This document shows, one piece after another, positions 7,448-35,992 of a stretch of DNA of 64,000 nt; the stretch's first letter is position 1; every line of letters starts with the position of its first letter. The notes below the pieces were generated by a model. It did not search any database. It was not told where the DNA came from and worked only from the letters and a program-made list of their open reading frames with translations. The position numbers and the translations under genes are program-made. The stretch covers positions 4,411,145 through 4,475,144 of the forward strand of contig OZ001190.1 of the NCBI GenBank assembly GCA_963921355.3. The letters are read 5' to 3'. The DNA is from Thalassobaculaceae bacterium (lineage in GTDB: Bacteria > Pseudomonadota > Alphaproteobacteria > Thalassobaculales > Thalassobaculaceae).

Positions 7448-7522
7448 GGGCGCGTAGCTCAGCGGGAGAGCACTACGTTCACACCGTAGGGGTCGCTGGT
7501 TCAATCCCAGCCGCGCCCACCA
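7448..7522 (+). tRNA. tRNA-Val (anticodon CAC), CCA encoded
   Basis: Hand-folded cloverleaf. Acceptor GGGCGCG/CGCGCCC; D arm GCTC-AGCGGGA-GAGC; anticodon stem CTACG/CGTAG with loop TTCACAC; T arm GCTGG-TTCAATC-CCAGC; discriminator A plus CCA. Confidence 0.92.
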
Positions 7523-7523
7523 T
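7479..7523. repeat. left copy of 45-bp perfect direct repeat (tRNA-Val 3' half; attL-like)
   Basis: tcacaccgtaggggtcgctggttcaatcccagccgcgcccaccat is identical to 15355-15399. The flanking bases differ on both sides. Confidence 0.92.
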
Positions 7524-7575
7524 CTTTTCAATAAGTTTGACAATCGGTTAGAGACCGAGTGCGGAAACGCGCGGT

Positions 7576-8134: not shown

Positions 8135-9598
8135 ATGGCGAGCGAGCGGACCAGTTTGAGCGTTAAGGACGCTGTTGCGCTCTGGGATCAGGGCAAGAAA
8201 GCCTGGAACGCCTGGGTCGAAAAACACCCCGAAGCTGATATCAGCTTTGAGGGATGGAATTTCTCGGAGCATGAACTCGTCCGCTTCGGCGGGTTTCGCT
8301 TTCCCGACGGCAACATATCCTTCCGCGGCGCCAGGTTCGGAGACGGCTGGGTCGACTTCGAAAACGCCACGTTCGGCGACGGCATCGTCGACTTCAGAGC
8401 CGCAACGTTCGTGGACGGCTGGGCCTCCTTCAAGTACGCGGACTTCGGGGACGGCGACGTCTTCTTCGGCGATGCCAGGTTCGGGGACGGCGGCTTCGCC
8501 GACTTTACTCGCGCGACGTTCGGGGAAGGCAACGTTGACTTCGGCAAACACGCCGGCAGACGCCGCCGCACATCCGGGGACGACGAGACCGAAGAAGACG
8601 TTGGCGCCAAGAAAGGCGCCAAATTCGGGAAGGGCGGGATCCGTTTCTTCAGCACCAAGTTCGGGAAGGGCAACGTCCTCTTCAGAGGCGTCACGTTCGG
8701 GGGCGGCGACGTCGACTTTTTTGAAGCGGAATTCGGGGACGGCAAGGTCGACTTCAGCGGCACCAAGTTCGGGAGCAGTAACGTTTCCTTCAGGGACACC
8801 GAATTCGGGGACGGCGCCGTCGACTTAAGCAGTGTTGCGTTCGGGGACGTCAAGGTTTCCTTCGCTAACGCCACCTTCGGGGGTCCGTTCTCCTTCACTC
8901 CTCCACCGGATAAGAGGGACCAACCGATACGATCCCTCTCATTTCAGAACTGTCGATTTGACGATCGGCTTGTCCTGGCTGGCAGCTACTCCTGCATCCC
9001 GGACCTGCGCAACACGATTACAACCGGTCATGTCGACCTGCAGAAACTGATCGTCAAGCCTTGGAAGGTCAGTGTCTTGACATCGCCCGTCGAGGCGTTC
9101 TCGAAGGATCCCGACGAAGACGTGCCGGCGCTCCGGCGCCTCAAAGAACTGGCCGAGAGCAACCGGCACCACGACGCAGCCTTACGCTTTTTCGCCGACG
9201 AAAGACGGGCCCTGAGGTGGCACAAAGACCATCACATGGGGGCAGGCGCCTCGCTACTGGACTGGGCCTACGATACCGCCTGTGACTACGGTCAGTCCCT
9301 CGTTCGGCCGACCTTCGTCCTGCTGGTGATCATCCTGTTGTTCGTGCCGATCTATGCGGAGATGCCAGATACGGAACTGACGAAGGAGGAACGATACGAG
9401 GAGGCCCTCTCCGCGTCGGTCAGCAACACGGTCCCGTTTCTGCCATCGGCGGTCAACGTGCGCACGGAGTCCTTCAAGACCCTGTTCGGCGTTGCCCCCC
9501 CATTCCTTGCCGATGCCCTGCGACTGCTCCAAGGTGCTGCCGGCTTTGTATTCCTGTTTCTTATCGGCCTTGGACTGCGGAACCGGTTCCGAATGTAG
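8135..9598 (+). CDS. pentapeptide-repeat protein with C-terminal two-helix membrane domain
   Basis: The N-terminal segment AWNAWVEKHP is followed by about 40 pentapeptide units in two blocks (F-G/D-D-G-x-V-D-F type, e.g. ARFGDGWVDFENATFGDGIVDFRAATFVDG). These are split by a charged linker (HAGRRRRTSGDDETEED). The C-terminus has a helical region and two hydrophobic helices: RPTFVLLVIILLFVPIYA and GAAGFVFLFLIGLGL. Confidence 0.85.
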   Translation: MASERTSLSVKDAVALWDQGKKAWNAWVEKHPEADISFEGWNFSEHELVRFGGFRFPDGNISFRGARFGDGWVDFENATFGDGIVDFRAATFVDGWASFKYADFGDGDVFFGDARFGDGGFADFTRATFGEGNVDFGKHAGRRRRTSGDDETEEDVGAKKGAKFGKGGIRFFSTKFGKGNVLFRGVTFGGGDVDFFEAEFGDGKVDFSGTKFGSSNVSFRDTEFGDGAVDLSSVAFGDVKVSFANATFGGPFSFTPPPDKRDQPIRSLSFQNCRFDDRLVLAGSYSCIPDLRNTITTGHVDLQKLIVKPWKVSVLTSPVEAFSKDPDEDVPALRRLKELAESNRHHDAALRFFADERRALRWHKDHHMGAGASLLDWAYDTACDYGQSLVRPTFVLLVIILLFVPIYAEMPDTELTKEERYEEALSASVSNTVPFLPSAVNVRTESFKTLFGVAPPFLADALRLLQGAAGFVFLFLIGLGLRNRFRM

Positions 9599-9704: not shown

Positions 9705-12107
9705 ATGGGAGACGGCGCTGCGAGCGACCTGCCGACGGGTCTCTCCGAGGGAGACCTGGTCGAGGCGAAGCGCTCCATTCCAGGGAGCTTTCTGGTCCAG
9801 ACGGCCGCGATGGTGGTTCTTCTGACCGCGTGGGCTATCGGGGTGGTGCAGCTTCAAGACACGCTCGAACCCATGATGTCGCGGTTCGGCCTCAATGCTC
9901 AGCAGCAGGATCTCCTGGTCATCGGCATACCGGCGACGTTGACGGTTGTCTGGGTGATTGAACGTGCGATCCGGTGGCAGCGACGCCGGCGCCTCGAGGC
10001 CACCGAGTTCGCGCTGCCGGAGCCGGGCTACTTCCGGATCGAGCCGTTCGGACCAGGCGATCATGGAACACGCTACAAGACGCGTCAGGATCACTCCGAG
10101 GCCGACACCCTGAACTGGATCCTCGGGTCGACCGAGCGCCTTCTCTATCTGACCGGCCGATCGGGGTGCGGAAAGTCCTCCCTCCTGGGCGCTCACCTCG
10201 TTCCCGAACTCGAGGAACGGGGTTGGCTTGTGTGTTCGGTTCGCGCCGGGACCGATCCGCTCGCAGCGGCCGCAGCCGCGGCCTCAAAGCTTGGCGTTCT
10301 AGGACAACCGGCCCCCGAAGCCGAAGATCCGGCGAGGCGCCTGAGTGCGGCGGGTGAGCGCGCAAAGGGTGATGGCAAAAGACTGCTGATCGTCATCGAC
10401 CAGTTCGAGGAGTTCCTGATCCTGAACGATGAGGATCCGGACGCCTTGGCCCGGTTCAAAGAGCAGATATCTTCCCTTTTGGGAGCCGATACCGCGGGTC
10501 TCACGGTCCTGCTGGTTTTCCGGAGTGACTACAGCGATCTGGTGGAGGTCTGCGGCTTGCCGCTCATGCGCCAAGGCGAGAACTGGCGTGAGTTGGGTCC
10601 GTTCATGCGAAAGGAGGCCGTCGACTTCCTGAGCGGCGGGCTCGGCACTATCGGGACCCCTCTCATGGAGAGGTTGCTTGGCGGCCTCGACGAGTTGGAA
10701 GAGACCCCGGGCCGATACCGGCCGGTCACGCTGAATATGGCAGGGATGGTGTTCGCCAGTGGGACCGGGCGGTTGGACACGCCGCCCGAACAGCTGATCC
10801 ACCGCTACGTCGACGACGCGATAAAGGATCCGGAAACCTTGGATCTGGCGCCAGGGATTCTGCAGACGATGGTGACCGACGCCGGAACGAAGCGTCCGGT
10901 TTCGCTGGCGCACCTGGTGGCCGAGAAGAAGGAGCGGCCAGAGACCATTCGCGGCGTTCTTCGACGCCTTGCGGTAAGCCGTTTGGTGCGGTCGCTCGAT
11001 CCCGATCAGAACAGCTGGGAGATTTCGCACGACTTCGTTGCACGGCTGATCGGCCAGCGACTTGGCCGATTGCGCCCATCTCCTTTGCGTTTCCTGCGAG
11101 GCTGGGTCGTTCCAGGGCTCCAGGCACTCGCTGTGGCAGGTCTGATGGCGAGTGCGTGGGTGTGGCACCAGGGCGAGCGTGACCGCCTTATCGCGACGCT
11201 GTCGGACAACGGGATCGTCGTCAGAGAGATAGGGGGCCTCCGGGTCGCTGAGCCGACCAATCCTTCAGCGTTCTCGAACGCCAGTCTCGATAGTCTCGGC
11301 CCGGATTTGGACCGCTGGGTTGAGATCGAGACCAAGCCCACAGGCCTGAACTTCAGTGGTACCACCATCAAAGATCTAGGACCACTTGCCGGCTTCGTCC
11401 GTCTGCAGTCGCTGCACCTGTATCACGCCGATGTTGATGATTTGGAGCCGTTAAGGAACCTCAAAGGGCTGAAGTTCTTAAGGGTTGGCAGGACGGGTGT
11501 CACTGATTTAGACCCGCTAAAGGAGCTCAAAGCGCTACAACTTCTCGACTTGGGAAATAATCATGATCTCAAGGACTTGGCTCCCCTTAAAGGCCTCACT
11601 GCGCTGCAAAATCTGAATTTGTCTTGGACCAATGTCACCGACCTAGAGCCACTTAAGGATCTCAGTGCACTGGACACCCTGAATTTGACAGACACTAAAG
11701 GTATCGAGAACCTAACTCAGCTTAAGGGTCTCCTGCGGCTCGAGAAGTTGTTTCTTTCAAGGACCGCTGTCGCTAACTTGAAGCCGCTCAAGAAACTCAA
11801 AGCATTGGTCGTTCTAAGTTTGAGCGAAACACGTGTCACCGATCTATCGCCGCTAAAGGGTCTCACCTCGCTGGAATTTCTAGACTTGTCAGGTAACAAA
11901 GGTATCAAGGACCTGGATCCGCTTAGGGGCCTTAGATCGTTGGAGAAGCTGATCCTGAATGGAACCTCTGTCGACGATATTGGTCCAGTAGAGCACCTCA
12001 AGGCCTTGCGGATTCTGGAAACCAAAGCCACTCCCTATTCCAAGCGTACGACTAAGGATCCGGAGGCGGTTACGCCAGCGCCTAGCGGTGTTTCCACACG
12101 GAGATAG
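9705..12107 (+). CDS. membrane-anchored STAND-class P-loop NTPase with C-terminal leucine-rich repeats (NLR-like architecture)
   Basis: ATG at 9705 (the track uses TTG at 9693). Two N-terminal hydrophobic helices: FLVQTAAMVVLLTAWAIGVV and LLVIGIPATLTVVWVI. Walker A is LTGRSGCGKSSLL (about 10155-10181) and Walker B is RLLIVIDQFEEF. A helical/winged-helix-like region ends in WEISHDFVARLIG. A third hydrophobic helix is VVPGLQALAVAGLMASAWVW. About 10 LRRs of 22-23 aa follow (LxxLxxLxxLxLxxTxVxDLxPL, 11346-12020). Confidence 0.85.
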   Translation: MGDGAASDLPTGLSEGDLVEAKRSIPGSFLVQTAAMVVLLTAWAIGVVQLQDTLEPMMSRFGLNAQQQDLLVIGIPATLTVVWVIERAIRWQRRRRLEATEFALPEPGYFRIEPFGPGDHGTRYKTRQDHSEADTLNWILGSTERLLYLTGRSGCGKSSLLGAHLVPELEERGWLVCSVRAGTDPLAAAAAAASKLGVLGQPAPEAEDPARRLSAAGERAKGDGKRLLIVIDQFEEFLILNDEDPDALARFKEQISSLLGADTAGLTVLLVFRSDYSDLVEVCGLPLMRQGENWRELGPFMRKEAVDFLSGGLGTIGTPLMERLLGGLDELEETPGRYRPVTLNMAGMVFASGTGRLDTPPEQLIHRYVDDAIKDPETLDLAPGILQTMVTDAGTKRPVSLAHLVAEKKERPETIRGVLRRLAVSRLVRSLDPDQNSWEISHDFVARLIGQRLGRLRPSPLRFLRGWVVPGLQALAVAGLMASAWVWHQGERDRLIATLSDNGIVVREIGGLRVAEPTNPSAFSNASLDSLGPDLDRWVEIETKPTGLNFSGTTIKDLGPLAGFVRLQSLHLYHADVDDLEPLRNLKGLKFLRVGRTGVTDLDPLKELKALQLLDLGNNHDLKDLAPLKGLTALQNLNLSWTNVTDLEPLKDLSALDTLNLTDTKGIENLTQLKGLLRLEKLFLSRTAVANLKPLKKLKALVVLSLSETRVTDLSPLKGLTSLEFLDLSGNKGIKDLDPLRGLRSLEKLILNGTSVDDIGPVEHLKALRILETKATPYSKRTTKDPEAVTPAPSGVSTRR

Positions 12108-12195
12108 AGTAGACAGCTTCGTTCCCTGCCGCGCAGGCTTTCTGATCGCCCTTGCCGCCGCGCGCAACGCCTGGCGGGAGTGACCGCCGGGTCCG

Positions 12196-12855
12196 TCAGT
12201 CGACGGTGATGCGGATGCCGCGGACCTGTTCGATTGCCCAATCCGGTCGAGGTGATACCGCCGTGGGGATTGGCCGGAGGTCCCTTTGTTCGATGAAGAA
12301 ATTGAAGGCCTTCTCCGGCAGAATCCACTGGGTTTTGAAGTTGTGGACCGCGTGGGCACACGCGAGTCCCTCGTTTAGAACTGCTATCATATGATTCTGT
12401 TTCTGATCCTTGGAAAGCGTCCCGCCGTCCTCGATGATCGCCTGATGCTCGGCTTCTATTTCCTCGACCCGAGCCTCTTTGGCTACGCACTCGGCGGTCT
12501 TCTCCTTGGGCTGGATGGAAATGGAAAACGACGTAACGACTACGTCGGTTGATGTGTTTCGCACATGCCCCGAATAGTCGATCTTGGAGTTGTCCAGAAC
12601 AGAGCGACGGTACCCTGCTGTCCCCGTTAGAATCCTGCCGGTGATGGCGGTTTCGTTTTGCTCCGCGCAGCGCGCGCGGATCACTTCGCTTGGAACCAGA
12701 TCCGACGCGTTCTCTTCGACACAAGCCTCGATCGCCGCGAGCGTCCCGGGTTCGGGTGGCGGCTCGCAGGCGACCAGCCCCGCCGCCAGCAGGAGCATTG
12801 CCACGCTTCGAGTGGGGATTCCAAGCAGGCGCTGAAGGGCGATCGCGTCGACCAT
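12196..12855 (-). CDS. putative lipoprotein, unknown function
   Basis: ORF 12196..12927. Lipobox LAAGLVAC after MVDAIALQRLLGIPTRSVAMLL. The start (12927, 12855 or 12798) is unresolved. Confidence 0.5.
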   Translation of the reverse strand: MVDAIALQRLLGIPTRSVAMLLLAAGLVACEPPPEPGTLAAIEACVEENASDLVPSEVIRARCAEQNETAITGRILTGTAGYRRSVLDNSKIDYSGHVRNTSTDVVVTSFSISIQPKEKTAECVAKEARVEEIEAEHQAIIEDGGTLSKDQKQNHMIAVLNEGLACAHAVHNFKTQWILPEKAFNFFIEQRDLRPIPTAVSPRPDWAIEQVRGIRITVD

Positions 12856-12996
12856 GATGGGTAGCCTATCAGGGCTTCGCTCACGGGGGAGATCGGCGAT
12901 CGAAAGAGCACTCTGACGCGGTGTCACCGGCGTCTCACGTCAGTCGTGATTCGAAGTAGAGGAAATCCCTTCTCTTGAGGCCAGCTCAGCTGTTCC

Positions 12997-13290
12997 TCAA
13001 TCGCCGCTCGGCAGCCTCTCATCCGCGACGAAGTTCGAGAACTTCGTCGTCGCTCCGTCGAAGTGCAGCTGCACAGTCCCCGTCGGGCCTTGGCGCTGTT
13101 TTGATATGATCACCTCGGCCTTGCCCGCAGCCTTCTCGTAGCGTTCCTGCCAGGCATCGTAGCGGTCGCGGAACTTCTCAGAGTACTCGTCGATCCGCTG
13201 GATCGGCTCCGCATCATGCTTTGTCGACGCTGACTTGTGGAGGTCGACCAACGCTGCGTGTGGCGAACGAAAGACGGCTCCGGACAGCAC
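12997..13290 (-). pseudogene. dnaB: C-terminal remnant of a DnaB-type replicative helicase
   Basis: The last 65 aa or so (EKFRDRYDAWQERYEKAAGKAEVIISKQRQGPTGTVQLHFDGATTKFSNFVADERLP) match the conserved DnaB C-terminus (AEVIIAKQRHGPTG..L.F.....F.N). No Walker/RecA-like core lies upstream. Confidence 0.7.
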
Positions 13291-13557: not shown

Positions 13558-14220
13558 CTACCGTGTGGCCACCAGAGCGACCCCACCTTCGGAGACGCTC
13601 AGATGCCGGGCCGAAATGGCGAACGCCAAACCCTCCGTTCCTCGATACGTAAAGGTTGCTATGCCCACCACTTCGCCTCTGCGGTTGAGTACTGGGCCTC
13701 CACTGTTCCCAGGATTGATAGCAGCGTCTACCTGAACCAACGACACAGGGCCATCGAACCGTATAGAGCTGACGATCCCTGCCGTCAGGGTACCCTTGAG
13801 TCCCTTTGGCGATCCTACGACCACGATAGGGGTTCCAGGTTCAGGGAGGTCACTGGCAACTGGCAAAGGCGCTTCGGAGTAAGGTTCGTCCACCCAGACG
13901 ATTGCAAAATCGAGGTCTTCATCACTGCGTCTCACAACAGTCCCCCCTAAACGTCGCCCGTCATTCAGCTCGACGACGACATCATTCGAGTCGCCGACGA
14001 CGTGCCGATTTGTGACGAGGTGGCGAGCATCGAGAAAGAAGCCGCTGCCCAACGACGTCTCGGTGAGCACGGTAACCACTGCCGGAGCGGCTCGCTTGTA
14101 GAGAGCGACCAGACTGCCTGGATTCCCTGGCTCCGCTGGAGCCACAGGCGTAGGCGTTTTCGACGCCGGAGAAGGCGGTGGTTGGACGCTCCGAAAACGA
14201 AGAGGAAGATCAAAGACCAT
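13558..14220 (-). CDS. trypsin-like (S1/S1C) serine protease, no PDZ domain
   Basis: 220 aa. Catalytic-triad contexts are VTNRHVV (His), DLDFAIV (Asp) and AAINPGNSGGPVL (Ser). There is no obvious signal peptide. It starts 7 nt after the upstream lipoprotein gene. Confidence 0.85.
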   Translation of the reverse strand: MVFDLPLRFRSVQPPPSPASKTPTPVAPAEPGNPGSLVALYKRAAPAVVTVLTETSLGSGFFLDARHLVTNRHVVGDSNDVVVELNDGRRLGGTVVRRSDEDLDFAIVWVDEPYSEAPLPVASDLPEPGTPIVVVGSPKGLKGTLTAGIVSSIRFDGPVSLVQVDAAINPGNSGGPVLNRRGEVVGIATFTYRGTEGLAFAISARHLSVSEGGVALVATR

Positions 14221-14226
14221 CCGCGC

Positions 14227-15105
14227 TCACTGCCGGACAGATTGGCCGTTCTCTGTGATCGTTGATCGACTCTCGACCAGGTAGGTTTGGCCGCTGAAAG
14301 GATCGATCAGCCTACGTCCAGTTACGCTGATCTGGAGGCCCGCCGTCGAAACGTCCGAGCGGAACCTAGTGCTAAGGAACTCATACCCTTCCACATACGC
14401 GACGCCTGTCACCCGCTCACTATTTTCGAACCTAGTCAACGCCGCGACGTCGCTAGAAGGAATGCGCCGGGTCAAGAAGTGGCCTAGCCGAACATCCGAG
14501 ACAAAATCCCGGGTCGCCGCATCAGCGACCAGAAAGCGCCTAAAGAAACTCTCACGCGTCGTCGCAGCGAGATCCGAACCGATCGTCAAGTCCGAGCTCA
14601 GCTTTGGCTGAAGCGTCATCTTGATCGGATCAACTGTACCGAACTCGCCAGTAAAGTTGCTGAGGATCGCCTTCTCAGCTTCCTCGTTGAAATCACCCAG
14701 ACCTGTCAGCTCGAAATCCAGCTTTACGGGATGGATGCGCCTCACGTGCCCAACCGCATCAAGCTCATAGTCCGAAGCGAGGCCGTTGGCCACCTGGGCC
14801 CGAATGTTTCGACCCGATCCCTGAAAGGAAATGCGCTCCAGATAGGTCCGAATTCGAACAGTGGCGCGATCCGTCGCAGTGATCGTTGCATAGCCATCGA
14901 GCCGGGTGGTTGTGCTTTGCTCAAGATCTTTAAGCTCACCACTGAATGGGACCCTGCCAATCGGCCGATAACGAATGTCGCTCAGTGTTGGAAGGCCGCT
15001 CGAATAAACCGCGATCGGCGCATTCACCGGTTCAGGCGGGGGAGCTGACGGAAGCGTTTTGCAACCGACTAAAACTAAGGCGAGAAGCGGGAGTATGGTG
15101 CGCAT
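14227..15105 (-). CDS. putative lipoprotein, unknown function
   Basis: The internal start gives MRTILPLLALVLVGCKT (lipobox LVGC). No family recognised. Forms an apparent operon with the S1 protease. Confidence 0.6.
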   Translation of the reverse strand: MRTILPLLALVLVGCKTLPSAPPPEPVNAPIAVYSSGLPTLSDIRYRPIGRVPFSGELKDLEQSTTTRLDGYATITATDRATVRIRTYLERISFQGSGRNIRAQVANGLASDYELDAVGHVRRIHPVKLDFELTGLGDFNEEAEKAILSNFTGEFGTVDPIKMTLQPKLSSDLTIGSDLAATTRESFFRRFLVADAATRDFVSDVRLGHFLTRRIPSSDVAALTRFENSERVTGVAYVEGYEFLSTRFRSDVSTAGLQISVTGRRLIDPFSGQTYLVESRSTITENGQSVRQ

Positions 15106-15354
15106 ACCGCTACGGTAGCAGCCCTGCGCTTCGGCACAACCGGATCCATTCATCGCGGCGGCGATCTCGACGGCCATTTCCTCTTCCGCGCGCAGTTGGC
15201 TGTAAAGGCCTAAGCTGAGTCCATCGACCCGATAGAAACTTGCAACGAACTTGCAACGGATCTCGCGAAACTTCGCTCAAACACAGGCGATGCCGTTGAC
15301 CGCTGGACTCGAAAACACGCAATAAATCAACAACATAGATTAAGTCGATTACAC

Positions 15355-15399
15355 TCACACCGTAGGGGTCGCTGGTTCAATCCCAGCCGCGCCCACCAT
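15355..15399. repeat. right copy of 45-bp direct repeat (partial tRNA-Val, attR-like)
   Basis: Identical to 7479-7523. It covers the anticodon loop through CCA only, so it is not a functional tRNA. Confidence 0.92.
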
Positions 15400-15553
15400 T
15401 TTCGCCCTGTCCCTACCTGACAGCATCACCCTCAGCGCTTTGCCGCCTAGGAGGCGACGAGACGCTTCTTCGCCCGGCCGAACGCCCCACCCATTTTGGA
15501 GCAGCGCTTCAATTCGGGACACGCCTCGGTCCCGAAAGGGCGAATTACGGCAA

Positions 15554-28800: not shown

Positions 28801-30209
28801 GCGATCCGGTCCTGAATCACCTCACCGCCAACCGGCCGGCGATCCTGACGCGTCTGACCGAGCTTCTGGCCGCACGCTCCGTCAGCACGGATCCGGGCTA
28901 TGCCGACGGTATGACCGAGGCCAGCGACCTGCTGTTGCGCCGCCTGGCCGGCGCCGGCTTCGCGGGCGTCCGATTGATCGAGGCAGGCGGCCATCCAGCG
29001 GTCTATGGTGAATGGCTCGGCGCACCCGGCAAGCCGACCGTTCTCGTCTACGGCCACTACGACGTGCAGCCGCCGGACCCGGTTGACGCCTGGGCCAGCC
29101 CGCCCTTCGAGGCGAGCGTGCGCGACGACCGGCTCTACGCCCGCGGCGCCTCCGACGACAAGGGCCCGGCCTCGATCGCGCTCGAGACTCTGACGGCGTT
29201 TCTCATCGTCGAGGGACGGCTGCCGGTCAACGTGAAGGTCCTGCTGGAGGGAGAGGAGGAGGTCGGCAGCGCCACCCTCCCCGCGATCCTGGAACGCCAT
29301 CGCGACCAGCTCATGGCCGATGCCGTCCTGTCGGCGGATGGCGGGCGCTGGCGCGCGGACATCGCGACCGTCGCCGTCGGGTCGCGCGGGATCACGGCGC
29401 TGGAATTCACCGTCACCACGGCGGTGAAAGACCTGCACTCGGGCCGGTACGGCGGCACCGTGCCGAATGCGCTGCAGGTGGCCGCCCAGCTGATCGCCAG
29501 CCTGCACGATGCCGAAGGCTGCCCGGCGGTCGACGGGTTTCTCGACGGCGTGGAACCGCCGCCGGCGGCCGAGCGGGACGCCCTTTCGTCCATTCCCTTC
29601 GACGATTCCGGCTACTATCGCGACCTCGGCACCGCACCGGCAGGGGAGCCTGGCTACGGCACCCTAGAACGGCTGTGGTACCGCCCGACCATCGACTGCA
29701 ACGGGCTCTGGGGCTGCTATTCAGGCGCGGGCGGCAAAACCGTGATCCCGAACCAGGCTCACGCCAAGCTCTCCTGCCGTCTGGTCCCGGGGCAGGATCC
29801 GGACGCGGCCACCGCCGCGGTGATCCGCCATCTCGAGCAGCGATGCCCGTCCGGCGCGCGGATCAAGATCCGGGCCGGTCATCCGTCAGCCGCGTACTCG
29901 GTCCCGGTCGACCACCCGCTGCTGCTGGCGGCGGAGGCGGCGCTGGCCGAGACCACTGGCACGCCGGCGATCCGGGTGCGCAACGGGGCGACCCTGCCGC
30001 TCTCGGACATGATCCGCGCGGCGCTGGGCATCGATACGGTGATGTTCTCGTTCTCGACCGCGGACGAGGACTTCCACGCCCCGAACGAGTTCATCCGCCT
30101 GTCGGCTTTCGACGACGGATTCGCCGCCTGGGTCGCGATCCTGCGCCGTCTGGCGGAGCTGACGCCCGCGTCATTCGACGCATTCAAACGTGGGGCAGAT
30201 CGAGACTGA
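28797..30209 (+). CDS. M20-family metallopeptidase / dipeptidase
   Basis: A GTG start overlaps the SDR stop. Motifs: VLVYGHYDVQPPDPVDAWASPPFE, LYARGASDDKGP and LLEGEEEVGS. Confidence 0.85.
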   Translation: MSDPVLNHLTANRPAILTRLTELLAARSVSTDPGYADGMTEASDLLLRRLAGAGFAGVRLIEAGGHPAVYGEWLGAPGKPTVLVYGHYDVQPPDPVDAWASPPFEASVRDDRLYARGASDDKGPASIALETLTAFLIVEGRLPVNVKVLLEGEEEVGSATLPAILERHRDQLMADAVLSADGGRWRADIATVAVGSRGITALEFTVTTAVKDLHSGRYGGTVPNALQVAAQLIASLHDAEGCPAVDGFLDGVEPPPAAERDALSSIPFDDSGYYRDLGTAPAGEPGYGTLERLWYRPTIDCNGLWGCYSGAGGKTVIPNQAHAKLSCRLVPGQDPDAATAAVIRHLEQRCPSGARIKIRAGHPSAAYSVPVDHPLLLAAEAALAETTGTPAIRVRNGATLPLSDMIRAALGIDTVMFSFSTADEDFHAPNEFIRLSAFDDGFAAWVAILRRLAELTPASFDAFKRGADRD

Positions 30210-30418
30210 CGGGACGCGATGCTGTCGCTACGCCGCGCGCGACCCGGATAGACCCAACGGGCCGGTCAACCTCTTCACGCTCCGGGCCGAGGCGCGGTCC
30301 GAGTCCAGATCCGGCCTGACCGACACCCGGCGCGCATGCCGACCGGGATTGACGCCTCCACGAACTTGCGCTCAGTAACCCTCTGTCCGGCAGGCCCAAT
30401 CGCACTGGAAACATCGGC

Positions 30419-31342
30419 ATGGACAGCCCCATTGCGACGCTCAATATCGCGCCTTCATCGAAGCACGTTCTCAAGGAAGCCGAGCGATACCGCGAGGCTT
30501 TTCTCGAAGATCAAGTGACCCTGGTCGAAGAGTCCGGGATTGAGTTCGACGCCGAGTTTCTGTCGAAGATGGTCTTCTCCGAGTCCATGAAGAAGATCGG
30601 CGTGAGCAATGGGGTCACCAAATCTCCCTTCTGGATGAAAGACGGAAAACTAAAGCGAAACCCGGATAACCCCCTCACGGAGTCCATCAGCAACGATTTC
30701 CTTCTGTTCAATATATGTTTCGAATTCAAACAGATAGAACACCAGATCAAGGAATTCGCCGCGTCCTTTTTCTCAGGATACGGAATCGTTGGCGGTGGGG
30801 AGCTCACCTACCGGTTCTGCCCGACGACAGATGAAGGGCTGCATTTCGACACCTTCAGTCAGGGCGAGCGCGGTTTATTCAAGCCTGCGTTCCGAGCCTT
30901 CAAGCTGTTCCTCAACGTCGACTCCAAACCCCGGGTCTGGCGGATTGGTCCCACGCTCAGCGACTTCATCACGGTGAAGAAGCACGCTCTGCCCGCCCCC
31001 TGTCCGGATGATGCCAACACGTTCTGCTTCGTGGTCGACAAGCTCGGACTGCTCGACACGTGCGAGACGCGACAAATCGAGATCCCTCCCGGCGGCATGG
31101 TGATCGCCAACGGAACCAACATCGCCCACCAGGTCGTGTCCGGCGACCGCATGGTCTGTCTCGAGACTCTGGTGACGGCGCTGAAGGATCGGCCGGTCAT
31201 TCGCTCCGAGCAGGAGGACTATCTGGCCATCATGGCGGCGTTCGAAATCCCGACGACGCCGGACTTGCCGGAAATCGACGCGTTGGCAACGCGGGACGGC
31301 TCCTTCGAGCGGGCCAAGAAGCGGTTGGCGCAAGCGGACTAG
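30419..31342 (+). CDS. KdoO-like (Kdo hydroxylase family, Fe(II)/2-oxoglutarate dioxygenase-like) protein, paralog 1 (family assignment tentative)
   Basis: 307 aa. GLHFDTF...RAFKLFLNVDSKPRVWRIGP and NIAHQVVSGDRMV resemble the KdoO motifs I recall: LH(V)DAF...R(V)F.N.NP...RVWRVGEPF and VMHAVMSGQ. Confidence 0.6.
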   Translation: MDSPIATLNIAPSSKHVLKEAERYREAFLEDQVTLVEESGIEFDAEFLSKMVFSESMKKIGVSNGVTKSPFWMKDGKLKRNPDNPLTESISNDFLLFNICFEFKQIEHQIKEFAASFFSGYGIVGGGELTYRFCPTTDEGLHFDTFSQGERGLFKPAFRAFKLFLNVDSKPRVWRIGPTLSDFITVKKHALPAPCPDDANTFCFVVDKLGLLDTCETRQIEIPPGGMVIANGTNIAHQVVSGDRMVCLETLVTALKDRPVIRSEQEDYLAIMAAFEIPTTPDLPEIDALATRDGSFERAKKRLAQAD

Positions 31343-31669
31343 CCGGGCCGCGCTTGGCGGCGAGAACGGGGCAGCGGCTTATGGCCGACCTGACGGGTCA
31401 GATGCAGCTCCGCATGGTCCTTCCGCAGGATCATGAACGCGACCAGGTCTCCGTTTTCGAAGGTCTGCGCAAACCCGCACATACCGCAACGTCACCAACA
31501 GCGAAGGTCACGGCGACGCGCCCCAACATGAGCGCGCAACTGTTGGGATGCCTCTGGCGATGCGGTCTTAACGCATTCCGGCATCAGCCCTACACTGCGA
31601 TTGACCCGCGGGTGACGCTGGGCAATAGCGCTTGGTATTCAAGAGAATTGATTTTGGGAGAATTCACGC

Positions 31670-32592
31670 ATGACCAACTCAATTGCCAAGCTAAATGTGG
31701 TTTCCTCTTCCAAAGACGCACTCAAGAAATCCAAATTCTACAGAAATAAATATCTCGATAATGAAGCTATTATTGTGGAGAATTCTGGAATCGATTTTGA
31801 TTCAGAGTTTCTTTATCGAGTAAAATTCATCGATTCCATGAAAAAGATTGGAACCCAAAATGGAATAACAAACGTCCTTTTTTGCTAATTGACGGCAAAC
31901 TCCAAAAAAATCCTAAAAACTATCTATCAAAAATCATCGAAGATGAACAATTTCGCAACAAAACTTGCTTTGAATTCAAGAATATAGAATTCAAAATTAC
32001 TGATTTCGCAAAATCCTTGTTTATGGGCGTGGGCGCCATCGGTGGTGGGCAAACCACATTGCGATTTTGCCCAACAACCGAAGAAGGACTGCACTTCGAC
32101 ACTTTCAAAGTTGGGGAATCCGGAGCCTTCAAGCGAGGGGTGCGTGCGTTCAAACTTTTCCTGAATGTCGACAAGAAGCCCCGGGTCTGGCGAATAGGTC
32201 CAGCGCTCGCCGACTTCATCACGATCAACCAGCACCATCTGCCCAACCCCTGTCCAGATGACGTCAACACGTTTTGCTATGTGGTCGACAAATTGGGGTT
32301 GCTCGACAATTGCGAGACCCGGCAGGTCGAGATACCCCCAGGCGGCATGGTGATCGCCAACGGTACCAGCATCGCCCACGAGGTTGTGTCCGGTGACCGA
32401 ATGGTGTGTCTGGAGACGTTTGTAACAGCTCTCCCAGGAAGACCGCCGATCAGATCAACACAAGAGGAGTTCCTGGCGATAACGGAGGAACTCGGGATCC
32501 CAATGGTCAAGGACTTCCCCGGCCTGGAGGCGCTGGCGAACCAGGACGGCTCATTCGAGCGCACCAAAAAGCGGCTCGCCGAGATGGCATAG
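31670..32592 (+). pseudogene. KdoO-like paralog 2, split by a 1-nt frameshift (track ORFs 31670..31888 and 31882..32592)
   Basis: Collinear with paralog 1 over its full length. Frame 1 reads ...GTQNGITN then hits TAA at 31886-31888. The -1 frame reads KRPFLLIDGKLQKNP, matching paralog 1 (KSPFWMKDGKLKRNP). The lesion is at about 31867-31873 (acaaac). Confidence 0.7.
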
Positions 32593-32695
32593 CAAGACGT
32601 ATCGGAAACTCGGCGCTTACCGATCCTTCGACAGGCCCCGGGTACGGCGCGCATGAAAGATGAAACTGAGAAAGCAACCTGAGGCGATCAGGGCT

Positions 32696-33727
32696 TCAGG
32701 CGGGGGGCGCCCGAGAAACCTGGGCTGCCAGGGTTTCGACCCATTTGCGGCCGATGCGTTCCGCATTGAAGTCGCGGACGACCCGCTCCTGGCCGGCGTG
32801 AATTGCTGCTTCCAAGTCGATCGACGATCGTGACAGCGCCGTCGCGATCCCATCCGCGAGGCCCTCACATAGAATGGCGTTGTCCGAGAACGCTTCGTAG
32901 GACGGGATCGGAGACGCGACAGCCAGCCGACCGGCGGCCAGTGTGTTGACGAGCCGGTTGGCGCTCTTGATCGCCGCGCCACGCTCATTGTCGCCCGGAA
33001 GAAGCACGATGTCCGATCGGGCAAGGGCCTCGGTCTGGCGCCCCCGCGACCACTCGGCGAACCGGATCCTGAAAGGCGCGCCGTCAATATCCGGTGCGCC
33101 GGCACAGTGCTCCCGGACCTGCGCGGTATCGGCCGACAACAACGTGATCCGCAGCGATCGATCGACCGCCAGATCGGCGATCTCCGAGAGATGCGGGGCC
33201 AGGTACAGGACATTGCCGCCCATACCGAACCAGAGGAGTTCCAGCGGGCCCGGATGATCGAACCGCGCCTTCGGCGGCGCGACCGGCTCCTCAAACGGCT
33301 CGTCGATCTGGATGACGGGGGTGCTGGGGTGCAGCCAGGCGCGGGCGCGCTCCGCCATCCGGGCGCTCGGCACCGTGGCGGCATCGGAGATCGCGGCGAT
33401 CTTCCGCATCCACCCGAACTGATGAGTCGCCTCCAGGTCGTCGGCGATATCGACGATCACCTTCTTGCCCATCGCCTTTGCGGCCTGCGCGATGTCGTAC
33501 GGGTCGACCCAGGTCTTGCCGAACAGGACGAGGTCAGCCTCTTTGAAAACCGCATGGTCGATTGTCTTGTCCACCGACCACCTGGCCATGATCCAGCTCG
33601 GATGTCCGGCCGCGCTGAAGCCGTTGTGGGCGGCGAGCAACCGCAGGCGGGTGGTGGCGAACTGCGCGGTCAAACCCCCGTCTGGATGTTGCTCGACGTG
33701 GTCACCGGAAATGATGAGGAGTTTCAT
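32696..33727 (-). CDS. putative glycosyltransferase (GT-B fold, GT1/GT4-like)
   Basis: 343 aa. The C-terminal half reads DIVLLPGDNERGAAIKSANRLVNTLAAGRLAVASPIPSYEAF, resembling the nucleotide-sugar-binding half of GT-B enzymes. The call is by eye only. Confidence 0.5.
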   Translation of the reverse strand: MKLLIISGDHVEQHPDGGLTAQFATTRLRLLAAHNGFSAAGHPSWIMARWSVDKTIDHAVFKEADLVLFGKTWVDPYDIAQAAKAMGKKVIVDIADDLEATHQFGWMRKIAAISDAATVPSARMAERARAWLHPSTPVIQIDEPFEEPVAPPKARFDHPGPLELLWFGMGGNVLYLAPHLSEIADLAVDRSLRITLLSADTAQVREHCAGAPDIDGAPFRIRFAEWSRGRQTEALARSDIVLLPGDNERGAAIKSANRLVNTLAAGRLAVASPIPSYEAFSDNAILCEGLADGIATALSRSSIDLEAAIHAGQERVVRDFNAERIGRKWVETLAAQVSRAPPA

Positions 33728-33851
33728 ATCGATCGCGCGCGCAGAACCTTTGAGAAAGGGACAGTCATTTTGATCATGTTCGAAAACATGAGGCTGCTGC
33801 CGAGACTGGAACCATTGGTCAAGACTGGTGCGGCTAGGTGGATGTCTGCGG

Positions 33852-33866
33852 TTAACCTCCTGTTAA
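33852..33866. promoter_or_regulatory. perfect CtrA-type box TTAA-N7-TTAA
   Basis: TTAAcctcctgTTAA. It lies in the divergent intergenic region, 125 nt from the GT start (33727) and 183 nt from the 34049 start. A GANTC site (GATTC, 33868-33872) is adjacent. Confidence 0.55.
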
Positions 33867-34048
33867 CGATTCGAAAATAGTCTGATTTTTAGCGAAATGA
33901 TGTGGTTGATCCTTTAATCTGCAGCAATCGGCTTTCAGTATTTTCCGCAGATCTGCCGTCCAGAACGGCGAGAATCGGTTTTGCGGGCGACGCGAGAAGC
34001 TGAACGTTGTATGTTTATAGGCAGAGAGAGAAGCTCGAGGACGAGGAC

Positions 34049-34936
34049 ATGACGTTCTCAATGATCGAAGTGAAGACGCGATGGATCGACGAAGCGGGTA
34101 ATGATTCCTCGCCGAACACTCTCTTCGGACGATCTGATGACTCGATCGCGCATTTCCTGTTGCACACCATGGGCTGGGTGCGGATCAGCCATTTCGGCCA
34201 GACGTATGACGTGACGTTCGATCCCCGGTCCGTGCGGCCGGGTGCGGCAGACAGCCTGACGGCCTGGGTTCGCCAGATGGGCGATACCGATCAGCCTTGG
34301 TTGATCAAACTGCACGCCTTCACAGGACGCGGCTGGATCATCGAAGACAACACGATGTCCGAACCGCTTTTGAAGATCCTCGCGCATCTTCTCGAGTTCG
34401 GGATGACGCCCAACATCCCCGAAACGATCTCGGTCACGGAGTCCGACATGGATTCCGTCCCCGCCTTGCAGACCTCGGACATTCAGGCGGTCATGGACGC
34501 TTGGCGGCGTGAGCATGGCACCATGCGTGTCGACAATCCGTTGGTTCGCAGCCTGCTCAGAGGTCAGGTCACGGGTCGATCGGTCAAGATCCTCAGCCGG
34601 GATAATCTCGGACGGATCTGTTTCAACACCTACAACGCATCGTCCTCGACCCTGTGGAACAACGGAACGCTGGTGAACTTCCACGGCGCCCCGGTCGTCG
34701 AGGCGGTTCCCGACCGTGCCCTTGGGTCAACCGTTGACCGTTCGGCGCGAAAGGTGATGGCCCGGGGAGTTCCGACGGTTGAGTATTGCCAGGGGCCCGT
34801 CCTCTCGTCTCAGGGGGTCGTCGCGGACCTCTGCTGGCATCGCCTGACGGTGCCGCTTTCGCAGACCGCCGACAACGATACGGTTCTGGTCATTACCCAG
34901 AGACAATCGCCGGTTACGAAGCAAGTCGCGGTCTGA
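34049..34936 (+). CDS. hypothetical protein (C-terminal half possibly PAS_5-like)
   Basis: ATG at 34049 is preceded by gaggacgaggac. The C-terminal part (AWRREHG...WHRLTVPLSQTADNDTVLVI) loosely parallels the 16170 protein (AWRRWCG...YVRLILPISDSDG). Confidence 0.6.
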   Translation: MTFSMIEVKTRWIDEAGNDSSPNTLFGRSDDSIAHFLLHTMGWVRISHFGQTYDVTFDPRSVRPGAADSLTAWVRQMGDTDQPWLIKLHAFTGRGWIIEDNTMSEPLLKILAHLLEFGMTPNIPETISVTESDMDSVPALQTSDIQAVMDAWRREHGTMRVDNPLVRSLLRGQVTGRSVKILSRDNLGRICFNTYNASSSTLWNNGTLVNFHGAPVVEAVPDRALGSTVDRSARKVMARGVPTVEYCQGPVLSSQGVVADLCWHRLTVPLSQTADNDTVLVITQRQSPVTKQVAV

Positions 34937-34959
34937 AACCTCTCGGTTCAGGAAAGTGG

Positions 34960-34974
34960 TTAACGTTCGGTTAA
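34960..34974. promoter_or_regulatory. perfect CtrA-type box TTAA-N7-TTAA
   Basis: TTAAcgttcggTTAA, 75 nt upstream of the 35049 start. Two GATTC sites (34998-35002 and 35010-35014) lie between the box and the start codon. Confidence 0.55.
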
Positions 34975-35048
34975 TTTCAACCGAGCACCCCTAATAGGAT
35001 TCGGGTATAGATTCCCTCCCTTTTGTCAATCGTGCGGGAGAGCGACAA

Positions 35049-35894: not shown

Positions 35895-35956
35895 TCGTCA
35901 ACAGGCCGCGGCAGCCAGGGTTGCCGCAGCGCCACCGTTGGCTCCCCCGGCATTCA

Positions 35957-35992
35957 GCCATTGCCGCCGCGCCCGCACGCAGCGGCAATGGC
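35957..35992 (+). terminator. strong hairpin downstream of 35049..35894 (no U-tract)
   Basis: GCCATTGCCGC-(14 nt)-GCGGCAATGGC, a perfect 11-bp stem. Confidence 0.35.

What the first reader, a model, noticed from the sequence alone, without database searches (positions are those of the whole stretch)
9705..12107. NLR-like protein whose LRR domain is predicted to be periplasmic (three TM helices bracket a cytoplasmic NTPase)
Read directly from the translation, the hydrophobic stretches are FLVQTAAMVVLLTAWAIGVV, LLVIGIPATLTVVWVI and VVPGLQALAVAGLMASAWVW.

The loop after TM2 is strongly basic (RAIRWQRRRRLE), and so is the segment before TM3 (RLGRLRPSPLRFLRG). By the positive-inside rule, the ATPase module is therefore cytoplasmic and the 10-repeat LRR domain sits outside the inner membrane.

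That would make this an outside-in receptor: extracytoplasmic LRR ligand sensing coupled to a cytoplasmic STAND switch. The layout resembles eukaryotic receptor-like proteins more than known cytosolic bacterial Avs/bNACHT sensors. The LRR segment is also the most AT-rich coding DNA of the island (27/60 G+C in line 11521-11580).
Basis: partly seen in the sequence, partly recalled or inferred. Interest (0 to 1): 0.65.

Follow-up and report, generated by a model that had tools for sequence, protein, structure and literature searches.

The report
Membrane-spanning bacterial NLR-like receptor, LRR outside
This gene encodes a bacterial relative of NOD-like immune receptors that is threaded through the inner membrane, so its ATPase switch sits in the cytoplasm and its leucine-rich-repeat sensor faces the periplasm; the layout is conserved in hundreds of uncharacterised homologues and differs from the cytosolic bacterial NLR-like sensors studied so far.

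Summary
Window 9705-12107 (+) is an intact 800-aa ORF. It reads: short N-tail, TM1 (29-48), 21-aa acidic loop, TM2 (70-85), nSTAND1-type STAND NTPase, TM3 (467-487), small cap, then about 10 internalin-type LRRs.

- Of 232 homologues that have a Walker A motif and sequence reaching the TM3 position, 207 carry a hydrophobic 19-mer (KD >= 1.6) about 316 residues after Walker A.
- Lys/Arg counts are high on the NTPase side of TM2 and TM3 and low on the loop and tail side.
- Homologues place cytoplasmic effector domains (TIR, CHAT, trypsin-like, DUF4062, EAD11) before TM1.
- One homologue places a peptidoglycan-binding OmpA domain after TM3.
- AF2 (pLDDT 88) gives one 42-residue helix from the winged-helix exit through TM3, then an internalin-like solenoid.

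The gene stands alone, with no conserved neighbour. It lies on a 7.9-kb island inserted in tRNA-Val.

Best reading: an outside-in STAND receptor of a conflict or immune system. Output is probably through the oligomerised TM bundle, because this copy has no enzymatic effector. Topology, ligand and output are all untested experimentally. No PADLOC model matches it, and no paper I could search describes this architecture. I rate it a new variant of a known kind.

The parts
9705..12107 (+). CDS of the 800-aa 2TM-nSTAND1-TM-LRR protein. An alternative TTG start lies at 9693. The stop codon is 12105-12107.
   Evidence: full-length homologues, E down to 5e-188
9705..9788 (+). Short N-terminal tail, res 1-28, predicted cytoplasmic. 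It carries no effector domain.
   Evidence: Homologues carry TIR, CHAT, Trypsin_2, DUF4062, EAD11 or SMEK_N at this position.
9789..9848 (+). TM1, res 29-48 (FLVQTAAMVVLLTAWAIGVV)
   Evidence: KD 2.09. AF2 helix 25-60. Conserved in homologues.
9849..9911 (+). Short acidic loop, res 49-69, predicted periplasmic
   Evidence: K+R 1, D+E 3. Family median loop length is 16 aa with net charge -0.45.
9912..9959 (+). TM2, res 70-85 (LLVIGIPATLTVVWVI)
   Evidence: KD 1.77. AF2 helix 65-99.
9963..9998 (+). Basic cytoplasmic flank after TM2, res 87-98 (RAIRWQRRRRLE)
10014..11060 (+). nSTAND1-type STAND NTPase module (NBD, helical domain, winged helix), res ~104-452, predicted cytoplasmic
   Evidence: Pfam PF20703, 84.8 bits. 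AF2 pLDDT mostly above 90. Invariant columns in two alignments.
10155..10181 (+). Walker A motif GRSGCGKSS, res 151-159
   Evidence: Invariant G151, S153, G154, G156, K157, S158, S159; position
10383..10412 (+). Walker B region LLIVIDQFEE, res 227-236
   Evidence: Invariant D232, Q233, F234, E235, E236; position
11016..11033 (+). WEISHD motif, res 438-443. This is a beta-strand followed by His-Asp at the start of the last winged-helix helix. It resembles the MHD motif of plant NLRs and lies 24 residues before TM3.
   Evidence: Invariant W438, E439, H442, D443. AF2 strand 437-440 and helix 443-452. Equivalence to MHD is inferred.
11058..11102 (+). Basic flank before TM3, res 452-466 (RLGRLRPSPLRFLRG)
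   Evidence: K+R 5, D+E 0. Family mean K+R is 4.0.
11103..11165 (+). TM3, res 467-487 (WVVPGLQALAVAGLMASAWVW). Predicted to act as an N-in/C-out signal anchor.
   Evidence: KD 1.66. Part of a single AF2 helix spanning 460-501. Conserved at Walker A +316 in 207 of 232 homologues.
11166..11339 (+). Juxtamembrane cap, res 488-545 (beta-hairpin plus helix), predicted periplasmic
   Evidence: AF2 elements E504-509, E512-517, H525-541
11340..12029 (+). Internalin-type LRR solenoid, res 546-775, about 10 repeats of 22-23 aa, no cysteine, predicted periplasmic. Low GC (0.50; GC3 0.578).
   Evidence: Pfam LRR_4. NCBIfam internalin_A partial match. Foldseek hit to InlF 4fmz, E 2.5e-18, TMt 0.69. Repeat units. 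Cys count 0.

Best explanation
The gene encodes a three-pass inner-membrane STAND (nSTAND1-clade) NTPase that works as an outside-in receptor of a biological-conflict or immune system.

Topology (predicted, strongly supported). The N-terminus is in the cytoplasm. TM1 and TM2 form a hairpin with a short periplasmic loop. The NBD, helical and winged-helix module is cytoplasmic. TM3 acts as an uncleaved signal anchor and exports the C-terminal cap and the ~10-repeat internalin-like LRR into the periplasm.

Mechanism (inferred).
- The LRR binds a ligand in the cell envelope. Candidates are a phage tail or ejection protein, or a toxin or effector delivered by a competitor.
- The membrane separates the LRR from the NOD. 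So the LRR cannot autoinhibit the NOD by folding back on it, as it does in cytosolic NLRs.
- The signal must therefore pass through TM3. TM3 continues, after an 8-residue break, from the last winged-helix helix, which carries the invariant His-Asp (SHD, MHD-like).
- The NBD is tied to TM2 and the winged helix to TM3. Movement or clustering of TM3 relative to the TM1-TM2 hairpin would open the NBD/winged-helix interface, allow nucleotide exchange and drive oligomerisation.

Output (inferred, least certain). Homologues carry TIR, caspase-like, trypsin-like or EAD modules before TM1. This copy, like most of the clade, has none. The likeliest effector is the ring of 3-TM bundles itself, which would permeabilise or depolarise the membrane in an abortive-infection-like response. 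The alternative is an effector recruited in trans.
For: Family assignment and an intact ATPase:
- nSTAND1 hit at 84.8 bits.
- Walker A, DQFEE, R273 and WE..HD are invariant in two independent alignments.

Topology:
- TM3 is conserved at Walker A +316, with median KD 2.17, in 207 of 232 homologues.
- It is absent in two distant nSTAND1 relatives.
- Charge bias: 4.7 against 1.6 across TM2 and 4.0 against 2.0 across TM3; the pre-TM3 flank exceeds the post-TM3 flank in 76 of 91 proteins.
- AF2 gives a mean pLDDT of 88.2, a helical hairpin at 25-99 and a single helix at 460-501.
- Domains after TM3 in homologues include OmpA (35.9 bits against cutoff 27.2), FGE-sulfatase and lectin-like folds.
- The family occurs almost only in diderm phyla.

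Conflict or immune role:
- N-terminal TIR_2, CHAT, Trypsin_2, DUF4062, EAD11 and SMEK_N domains in homologues.
- A variable sensor module on a constant core. LRR is found in about 63 of 90 representatives; the rest carry FGE-sulfatase, WD40, Ank or unknown tails.
- The gene stands alone, with no conserved neighbour in 80 loci.
- Homologues sit in a prophage, next to IS elements or in an ICE-like region.
- The window copy lies on a 7.9-kb island bounded by a 53-nt repeat of the tRNA-Val 3' half.
- The LRR has a lower GC3 and different nearest relatives from the NTPase, which suggests the sensor module was swapped.

The 2TM hairpin is core, not a swappable effector: it is kept even in homologues that carry an enzymatic head.
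Against: - No experiment and no dedicated topology predictor was available. The hydropathy and charge analyses are my own simple scripts.
- TM3 (KD 1.66) and TM2 (1.77) of this protein are only marginally hydrophobic, and a crude Hessa sum is about +5 kcal/mol for each.
- Some homologues have ankyrin, WD40 or caspase tails after TM3. These are more usual in the cytoplasm.
- No PADLOC defence model matches, and no phage-defence phenotype is known for any member.
- Several homologues sit among housekeeping genes.
- No effector domain is present in this copy, so the output step is speculative.
- AF2 coordinates could not be inspected, so packing of TM1, TM2 and TM3 is not shown.
Confidence: 0.62

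Rival explanations
1. Same topology, but not an immune receptor. The protein would be an envelope signalling or adhesion-type ATPase. For example, it could sense peptidoglycan or outer-membrane state, cell-cell contact or a host surface protein through an internalin-like LRR, and drive a non-lethal response.
For: The LRR is of the internalin type. Several homologues lie among housekeeping genes. One is next to an HtrA-type Trypsin_2-PDZ protease gene. Most members, including this one, have no recognisable toxic effector. No PADLOC model matches.
Against: Homologues fuse TIR, CHAT, DUF4062, EAD11 and trypsin heads, which are typical of conflict systems. Sensor modules are swapped on a constant core. 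The distribution is patchy and often on mobile elements, and no operon is conserved.
Confidence: 0.18
2. The third hydrophobic segment does not span the membrane in the resting state. It could be a buried or re-entrant helix, or one that inserts only on activation. The LRR would then be cytoplasmic, as in ordinary NLR-like sensors, and the protein would merely be anchored by, or armed with, an N-terminal 2TM effector.
For: TM3 of this protein is only marginally hydrophobic (KD 1.66) and contains Pro, Gly, Gln and Ser. Ankyrin, WD40 and caspase tails in some homologues would be at home in the cytoplasm. All characterised bacterial STAND sensors are cytosolic.
Against: In homologues the segment is clearly TM-like, with median KD 2.17 and values up to 2.87. 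It has a strong and consistent positive-inside asymmetry. AF2 does not bury it; it forms one long exposed helix. OmpA and FGE-sulfatase tails argue for export. The 2TM hairpin is retained even where a separate enzymatic effector is present.
Confidence: 0.1
3. The gene is a decaying passenger of a degraded integrative element and no longer functions, whatever its ancestral role.
For: The island has no integrase ORF and carries a DnaB C-terminal fragment. The gene's TM2 and TM3 are weaker than the family norm. No sigma-70-like promoter was found.
Against: The ORF is full length with every invariant family residue intact. AF2 confidence is high. The promoter scan covers only one promoter type, in an organism with about 70% GC.
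Confidence: 0.05

Closest known systems
nSTAND1 STAND NTPases of bacterial conflict systems (Kaur, Iyer, Burroughs, Aravind 2021, PMC8195603; Pfam PF20703)
   Same: The NTPase module is the same (Pfam hit well above cutoff). The logic of effector or EAD, then NOD, then variable sensor is the same. The set of heads (TIR, caspase/CHAT, trypsin, EAD) and the FGE-sulfatase sensor seen in some homologues also match.
   Different: [quoted passage not shown] Here the NOD is bracketed by a 2TM hairpin and a third TM, and the sensor is predicted to be outside the cytoplasm. LRR is the predominant sensor.
Bacterial NACHT proteins (bNACHT; Kibby et al., bioRxiv 10.1101/2022.07.19.500537) and Avs antiviral STAND proteins
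   Same: They share the STAND switch, a tripartite architecture, single-gene systems, and LRR sensors in some members such as bNACHT16. A conserved winged-helix His gives gain-of-function alleles in bNACHTs. [quoted passage not shown]
   Different: The characterised members sense phage proteins in the cytosol. The window protein has no Pfam NACHT hit and no PADLOC Avs or other model hit. The TM-bracketed NOD with an exported LRR has not been tested or described explicitly in the papers I could search.
Animal Toll-like receptors and plant LRR receptor-like proteins and kinases
   Same: The layout is the same: an LRR ectodomain, a single membrane-crossing helix next to it, and cytoplasmic signalling domains. 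Homologues with TIR heads (P0032, P0146, P0185, P0194, P0230) even combine an outside LRR with an inside TIR.
   Different: There is no homology beyond the generic LRR and TIR folds. Domain order is reversed, with the LRR C-terminal. A STAND ATPase and two extra TM helices lie between effector and sensor. The compartment is the periplasm of a diderm.
Plant CC-NLR resistosomes (ZAR1, Sr35, NRC)
   Same: Both have NOD plus LRR. Foldseek aligns the whole chain to Sr35, NRC and MLA resistosome subunits. Both have an HD motif at the winged-helix exit. The proposed output, an oligomer whose N-terminal helices form a membrane pore, is the same idea.
   Different: In plants the LRR and NOD are cytosolic and the helices insert only after activation. 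Here three helices are predicted to be inserted constitutively, and pore formation is pure inference.
Membrane-embedded P-loop defence NTPases (KAP NTPases; the YobI-family Tmn, PMC13001434)
   Same: These are P-loop NTPases that are integral membrane proteins and are implicated in phage defence.
   Different: They belong to different NTPase clades. In KAP NTPases the TM helices are inserted within the NTPase domain, and these proteins have no exported repeat sensor. Here the TMs flank an intact STAND module.
Listeria internalins (InlA, InlF, InlH)
   Same: The LRR subtype is the same: 22-residue repeats. The best Foldseek hit is InlF 4fmz (E 2.5e-18, TMt 0.69, rmsd 2.3 A). NCBIfam gives partial matches to internalin models. 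Both are extracytoplasmic LRRs.
   Different: The scores are far below the internalin family cutoffs (105 bits against 1600). There is no signal peptide, LPXTG motif, GW domain or inter-repeat Ig domain. Here the LRR is the ectodomain of an ATPase receptor.

Membership tests
STAND NTPase, nSTAND1 clade (Pfam PF20703) | Match to the family profile above the curated cutoff | tested here: met
   84.8 bits against cutoff 27.1, E 1.2e-23. All 57 members of a second homologue set also hit nSTAND1.
STAND NTPase, nSTAND1 clade (Pfam PF20703) | Intact Walker A (GxxxxGK[ST]) and Walker B (hhhhD followed by acidic residues) | tested here: met
   GRSGCGKSS at 151-159 and LLIVIDQFEE at 227-236. Both are invariant in alignments A1 and A2.
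STAND NTPase, nSTAND1 clade (Pfam PF20703) | Winged-helix domain after the NBD and helical domain, with a conserved His that contacts the nucleotide (equivalent to MHD or NLRC4 H443) | tested here: inconclusive
   WEISHD (438-443) is invariant and sits as a beta-strand followed by a helix in the AF2 model. Structural superposition on a solved STAND protein could not be inspected.
STAND NTPase, nSTAND1 clade (Pfam PF20703) | Tripartite architecture: N-terminal effector or adaptor, NOD, C-terminal sensor | tested here: inconclusive
   The sensor (LRR) is present. No effector domain is present in this copy, which has only a 28-aa N-tail. Homologues have TIR, CHAT, Trypsin_2, DUF4062, EAD11 or SMEK_N heads.
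NLR in the strict sense (NACHT or NB-ARC NOD plus LRR) / bNACHT | NACHT (PF05729) or NB-ARC module | tested here: not met
   No NACHT or NB-ARC hit at E <= 0.01 for the window protein. Homologues give only sub-threshold NACHT hits of about 24-30 bits against cutoff 26.7. The protein is NLR-like by architecture only.
NLR in the strict sense (NACHT or NB-ARC NOD plus LRR) / bNACHT | C-terminal LRR sensor | tested here: met
   LRR_4 at E 5e-31. AF2 solenoid with internalin-like Foldseek hits.
Avs (antiviral STAND) and other catalogued defence systems (PADLOC-DB v2) | Match to a system's protein model | tested here: not met
   The only hit is a spurious P-loop match to mad8 (E 0.0074, 13.8 bits).
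Avs (antiviral STAND) and other catalogued defence systems (PADLOC-DB v2) | Demonstrated protection against phage | not testable with these tools
   No experimental data exist for any member. No paper describing the architecture was found.
Extracytoplasmic-sensor membrane receptors (TLR or LRR-RLP-like layout) | Sensor domain on the trans side of the membrane, signalling domain on the cytoplasmic side, joined by a TM helix | tested here: met
   Met at the level of prediction only: hydropathy, family-wide positive-inside bias, the compartment preferences of fused domains, and the AF2 helix. Reporter fusions are needed.
KAP-family P-loop NTPases | TM helices inserted inside the NTPase domain; KAP_NTPase profile match | tested here: not met
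   No KAP_NTPase Pfam hit. The TMs flank the NTPase module and are not inserted in it.
Internalins (NCBIfam class 1 internalin models) | Full-length match above the family cutoff | tested here: not met
   internalin_A gives 105 bits against cutoff 1600, and only over the LRR region.

The most novel reading that the evidence does not exclude
Bacteria possess a widespread class of surface-facing pattern-recognition receptors built on an NLR-type ATPase. An exported LRR (or lectin, or beta-propeller) detects an invader or a competitor's weapon in the periplasm, before anything reaches the cytoplasm. It transmits this across the membrane by moving a TM helix that is directly joined to the winged-helix/MHD element of the STAND switch. 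It then kills or arrests the cell, either through a ring of its own TM helices or through fused TIR, caspase or protease heads. This would be a functional hybrid of TLR or RLP-type sensing and NLR-type switching. It would also be a new way to activate a STAND protein, without fold-back autoinhibition by the sensor.
Probability: 0.4. Interest if true: 0.85.

Novelty: new variant of a known kind. Interest (0 to 1): 0.66.

Why it matters
All bacterial NLR-like sensors characterised so far (Avs, bNACHT and relatives) detect phage proteins inside the cell.

If this clade really exposes its sensor to the periplasm, three things follow:
- The STAND/NLR paradigm extends to surveillance outside the cytoplasm.
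- Bacteria gain a counterpart of TLR and LRR-RLP receptors.
- A mechanistic question opens: how is a STAND switch controlled when the membrane prevents the sensor from touching the NOD?

The clade is large. A search with residues 1-500 found at least 361 clusters at 50% identity with E <= 1e-30. It spans several diderm phyla and is a single gene, so it can be cloned and tested directly.

The cysteine-free ectodomain and the invariant His give ready handles for topology mapping and for gain-of-function alleles.

Tried and rejected
- Conserved partner genes. ORFs of 80 homologous loci plus the window were clustered by all-against-all BLASTP. Nothing recurred except antisense ORFs of the gene itself, plus a Trypsin_2 gene in 3 loci and the window. 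A fourth locus with an adjacent Trypsin_2 gene turned up.
- Upstream pentapeptide/TM gene. It is not a family neighbour.
- PADLOC. No model matches.
- PDB sequence search with residues 1-500. Nothing meaningful was found.
- DNA-level tandem repeats in the LRR region, which could allow slippage or cassette variation. None were found.
- Promoter scan. No sigma-70-type site was found. A weak terminator-like hairpin follows the stop at 12125-12137, but the number of such sites found is only about twice the number expected from shuffled sequence.
- Identifying the organism. The exact-protein look-up found nothing. The genome-contig scan returned no relative closer than 39% identity.
- AF2 coordinates. 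They are not exposed, so TM-bundle packing and the relative sides of the NOD and LRR could not be measured.
- My first LRR regex and the repeat HMM built from the window undercounted other LRR subtypes. I corrected this with a Pfam scan.
- KAP-NTPase-like inserted TMs. I considered and rejected this reading.


Full report
**What is there**

Window 9705-12107 (+) is an intact ORF of 800 codons from the ATG; a TTG lies four codons upstream at 9693. Pfam places an nSTAND1 STAND-NTPase domain at residues 143-282 (84.8 bits, cutoff 27.1) and LRR_4 and related LRR families over the C-terminal third. NCBIfam gives only partial matches to internalin models, so the LRR is of the internalin subtype. No PADLOC defence model matches.

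These are the only three stretches whose 19-residue Kyte-Doolittle mean exceeds 1.6 (2.09, 1.77 and 1.66).

K+R/D+E is 1/3 in the TM1-TM2 loop, 6/2 after TM2, 5/0 before TM3 and 2/3 after TM3.

The G+C remark is also correct. Line 11521-11580 has 27/60 G+C, and 11501-12000 is the lowest 500-nt window in the first 24 kb (0.484).

**Is the third hydrophobic segment a real transmembrane helix?**

The strongest evidence comes from relatives. A full-length search returned 156 proteins with E <= 1e-5, almost all metagenomic and 29-46% identical. A search of the 50%-identity representative library with residues 1-500 alone gave 361 clusters at E <= 1e-30 and 711 at E <= 1e-10.

- In the first set, 106 of 112 proteins with a Walker A motif have a hydrophobic 19-mer (KD >= 1.6; median 2.17, maximum 2.87). 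It starts 316 residues after Walker A (interquartile range 315-317). Ninety-one have all three hydrophobic segments.
- In the second, LRR-unbiased set, 101 of 120 have it. Most of the exceptions are truncated or score 1.3-1.58.
- Two distant nSTAND1 relatives, from Anaerolineae and Streptosporangium, have nothing hydrophobic at that position (best KD 0.71 and 0.44). The segment is therefore a clade-specific insertion and not a core helix of the fold. This control has only two members.

**Topology**

Across the 91 three-TM homologues, mean K+R in 15-residue flanks is as follows:

| Flank | Mean K+R | Net charge |
|---|---|---|
| Before TM1 | 2.2 | |
| TM1-TM2 loop | 1.6 | -0.45 |
| After TM2 | 4.7 | |
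| Before TM3 | 4.0 | +3.7 |
| After TM3 | 2.0 | ~0 |

The flank before TM3 is richer in K+R than the flank after it in 76 proteins, equal in 8 and poorer in 7. The flank after TM2 beats the loop in 90 of 91.

Independent constraints agree:
- An ATPase needs cytoplasmic ATP.
- Homologues with extensions before TM1 carry TIR_2, CHAT, Trypsin_2, DUF4062, EAD11 or SMEK_N. TIR at least requires the cytoplasm, which fixes the N-terminus inside.
- After TM3, one homologue carries an OmpA peptidoglycan-binding domain (P0211, 35.9 bits against cutoff 27.2). Others carry FGE-sulfatase/C-type-lectin domains. There are weaker GH19-like and ConA-like lectin matches.
- The family occurs in Alphaproteobacteria, Acidobacteriota, Planctomycetota, Verrucomicrobiota, Bacteroidota and Gammaproteobacteria, which are diderm lineages with a periplasm.

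Not helpful either way: a few homologues have ankyrin, WD40 or caspase tails.

**Structure**

AF2 with a 51-sequence alignment gives mean pLDDT 88.2. The elements in order are:
- a long helical hairpin (25-60 and 65-99);
- a well-predicted NBD, helical and winged-helix module;
- a single 42-residue helix (460-501) running from the winged-helix exit through TM3;
- a small beta-hairpin-plus-helix cap (504-541);
- a regular solenoid with strands every ~22 residues from 546 to 772.

Foldseek against the PDB puts internalins first (InlF 4fmz, E 2.5e-18, TMt 0.69, rmsd 2.3 A). Next come the Roco LRR and whole-chain alignments to plant NLR resistosome subunits.

**Switch elements**

Two independent alignments show the same invariant columns: GxSGxGKSS (151-159), DQFEE (232-236), R273, R339/N344/G347, and W438-E439-x-x-H442-D443.

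In the model, WEIS is a beta-strand and HD opens the last winged-helix helix. This is the arrangement of the MHD motif of plant NLRs and of the His mutated to autoactivate NLRC4 and bNACHT proteins. That equivalence rests on established knowledge plus and is inferred, not shown.

TM3 begins 24 residues after H442, and no HD2-like domain lies between them.

**Family architecture**

The constant core is 2TM, nSTAND1, then TM. The tail varies. Among 90 representatives with TM3 and a tail of at least 100 residues:
- 33 have window-type LRRs;
- 30 more have Pfam LRR_4;
- the rest have FGE-sulfatase, ankyrin, WD40, Peptidase_C14, OmpA or lectin-like tails, or no recognisable domain.

The head also varies and is usually absent. 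Walker A sits near residue 150 in most members.

The 2TM hairpin is kept even when an enzymatic head is present. It therefore belongs to the constant transducer core and is not one of several interchangeable effectors.

**Genomic context**

The gene is a singleton. Clustering all ORFs of 80 homologous loci plus the window found no recurrent neighbour except a Trypsin_2 gene in three loci and the window. A fourth case appears.

Homologues sit inside a prophage next to a SIR2 gene, beside IS110 or IS21 elements and an ICE-like T4SS region, or among housekeeping genes.

In the window the gene lies on a 7.9-kb island. The 3' 53 nt of tRNA-Val (7474-7526) are repeated at 15350-15402 with 94% identity. 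The stretch between them has 59.5% G+C against 65.5% for the window and 72-74% for the flanking core genes.

The LRR segment has GC3 of 0.578 against 0.74-0.78 in the rest of the gene. Its nearest relatives (P0019, P0044, P0191) differ from those of the NTPase (P0006, P0004, P0007). Together these suggest the sensor module was exchanged by recombination. LRR alignments are promiscuous, so this stays a suggestion.

**How it most likely works**

Shown or strongly supported: a three-pass membrane protein with a cytoplasmic, apparently competent STAND ATPase and an exported LRR.

Inferred:
- The LRR binds something in the envelope.
- The membrane prevents the fold-back autoinhibition used by cytosolic NLRs. 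The signal must therefore travel through TM3 into the adjoining winged-helix/HD element, relative to the NBD tethered to TM2. Ligand-induced clustering is the alternative route.
- Nucleotide exchange and oligomerisation follow.

Output is the weakest step. With no enzymatic head in this copy, the oligomerised TM bundle is the simplest candidate effector, by analogy with plant resistosomes and bacterial TM effectors. A trans-acting partner, such as the nearby trypsin-like protease, is possible.

**Comparison with the literature**

- nSTAND1 was named by Kaur et al. 2021, who discuss nSTAND1-FGS proteins as intracellular sensors.
- Dore et al. 2024 predict a periplasmic location for some DGR-diversified C-type-lectin targets.
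- A 2026 survey of bacterial STAND receptors mentions transmembrane segments only in a figure legend.
- Phrase searches for periplasmic or extracytoplasmic LRR, and for transmembrane or membrane-bound NLR or STAND, found nothing bacterial.

The idea of extracytoplasmic sensing by STAND proteins is therefore foreshadowed. This specific, large, LRR-dominated clade and its TM-bracketed NOD appear undescribed and untested, within the open-access library I could search.

**Verdict**

I file the protein as a member of the nSTAND1 STAND NTPases and as a new architectural variant: NLR-like, but not an NLR, Avs or bNACHT member by profile tests. Interest is 0.66. It is limited by the absence of any experimental support and by the partial anticipation in the literature.

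Noticed in passing
window 7448-7526 and 15350-15402: The 3' 53 nt of tRNA-Val (7474-7526) are repeated at 15350-15402 with 94% identity. The two copies bracket a ~7.9-kb low-GC island (59.5% G+C) that carries the nSTAND1-LRR gene. I saw no integrase ORF inside it, so it looks like a decayed integrative element.
   Followed up: partly
window 8135-9598 (+): The gene directly upstream, on the same strand with a 106-nt gap, encodes a 487-aa protein with pentapeptide repeats and two C-terminal hydrophobic helices. It matches phage family phrog_25690 (unknown function) at E 3.9e-64. It is not a conserved neighbour of the nSTAND1-LRR family.
   Followed up: partly
window 13558-14220 (-), with 14227-15177 (-) and 12196-12927 (-): A 220-aa trypsin-like serine protease with no PDZ domain and no obvious signal peptide. 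It hits PADLOC protease models (RT-Protease_XI at 1.3e-19, LmuA, Avs1b). It is flanked by two ORFs with lipobox-like N-termini (LVGC and LVAC). Trypsin_2 genes also sit next to homologues in L006, L019, L055 and L081, and Trypsin_2 is fused N-terminally in P0155, P0200 and P0233. It is a possible trans effector, or a coincidence.
   Followed up: partly
window 12997-13290 (-): A 97-aa ORF that matches only the C-terminal end of DnaB-like replicative helicases (phrog_19 and phrog_19347). It is probably a gene fragment left by the mobile element.
   Followed up: no
window 11340-12029 (+): The LRR-coding segment has GC3 of 0.578 against 0.74-0.78 for the rest of the same gene. Its best BLAST relatives differ from those of the NTPase part. 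This is consistent with a sensor cassette acquired by recombination from a lower-GC donor.
   Followed up: partly
window ~30000-36000 (minimum near 31700-32000): A second low-GC stretch. GC falls to 0.52 per kb and to 0.31 in a 300-nt window at 31701-32000, far below the window mean of 0.655. It may be another horizontally acquired segment. I did not examine it.
   Followed up: no
locus L007 3889-6285 and 6302-8716: A Thermoanaerobaculia MAG carries two tandem paralogues of the nSTAND1-LRR gene, which suggests local duplication and diversification of the receptor.
   Followed up: no
loci L076, L078, L080 (Deltaproteobacteria MAG CSMAG_234) and L075: More distant nSTAND1 proteins lack the N-terminal TM hairpin but have a single strong hydrophobic segment further downstream of the NOD (for example Walker A +384 in L080). 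Membrane-crossing after the NOD may therefore have arisen more than once in nSTAND1.
   Followed up: no
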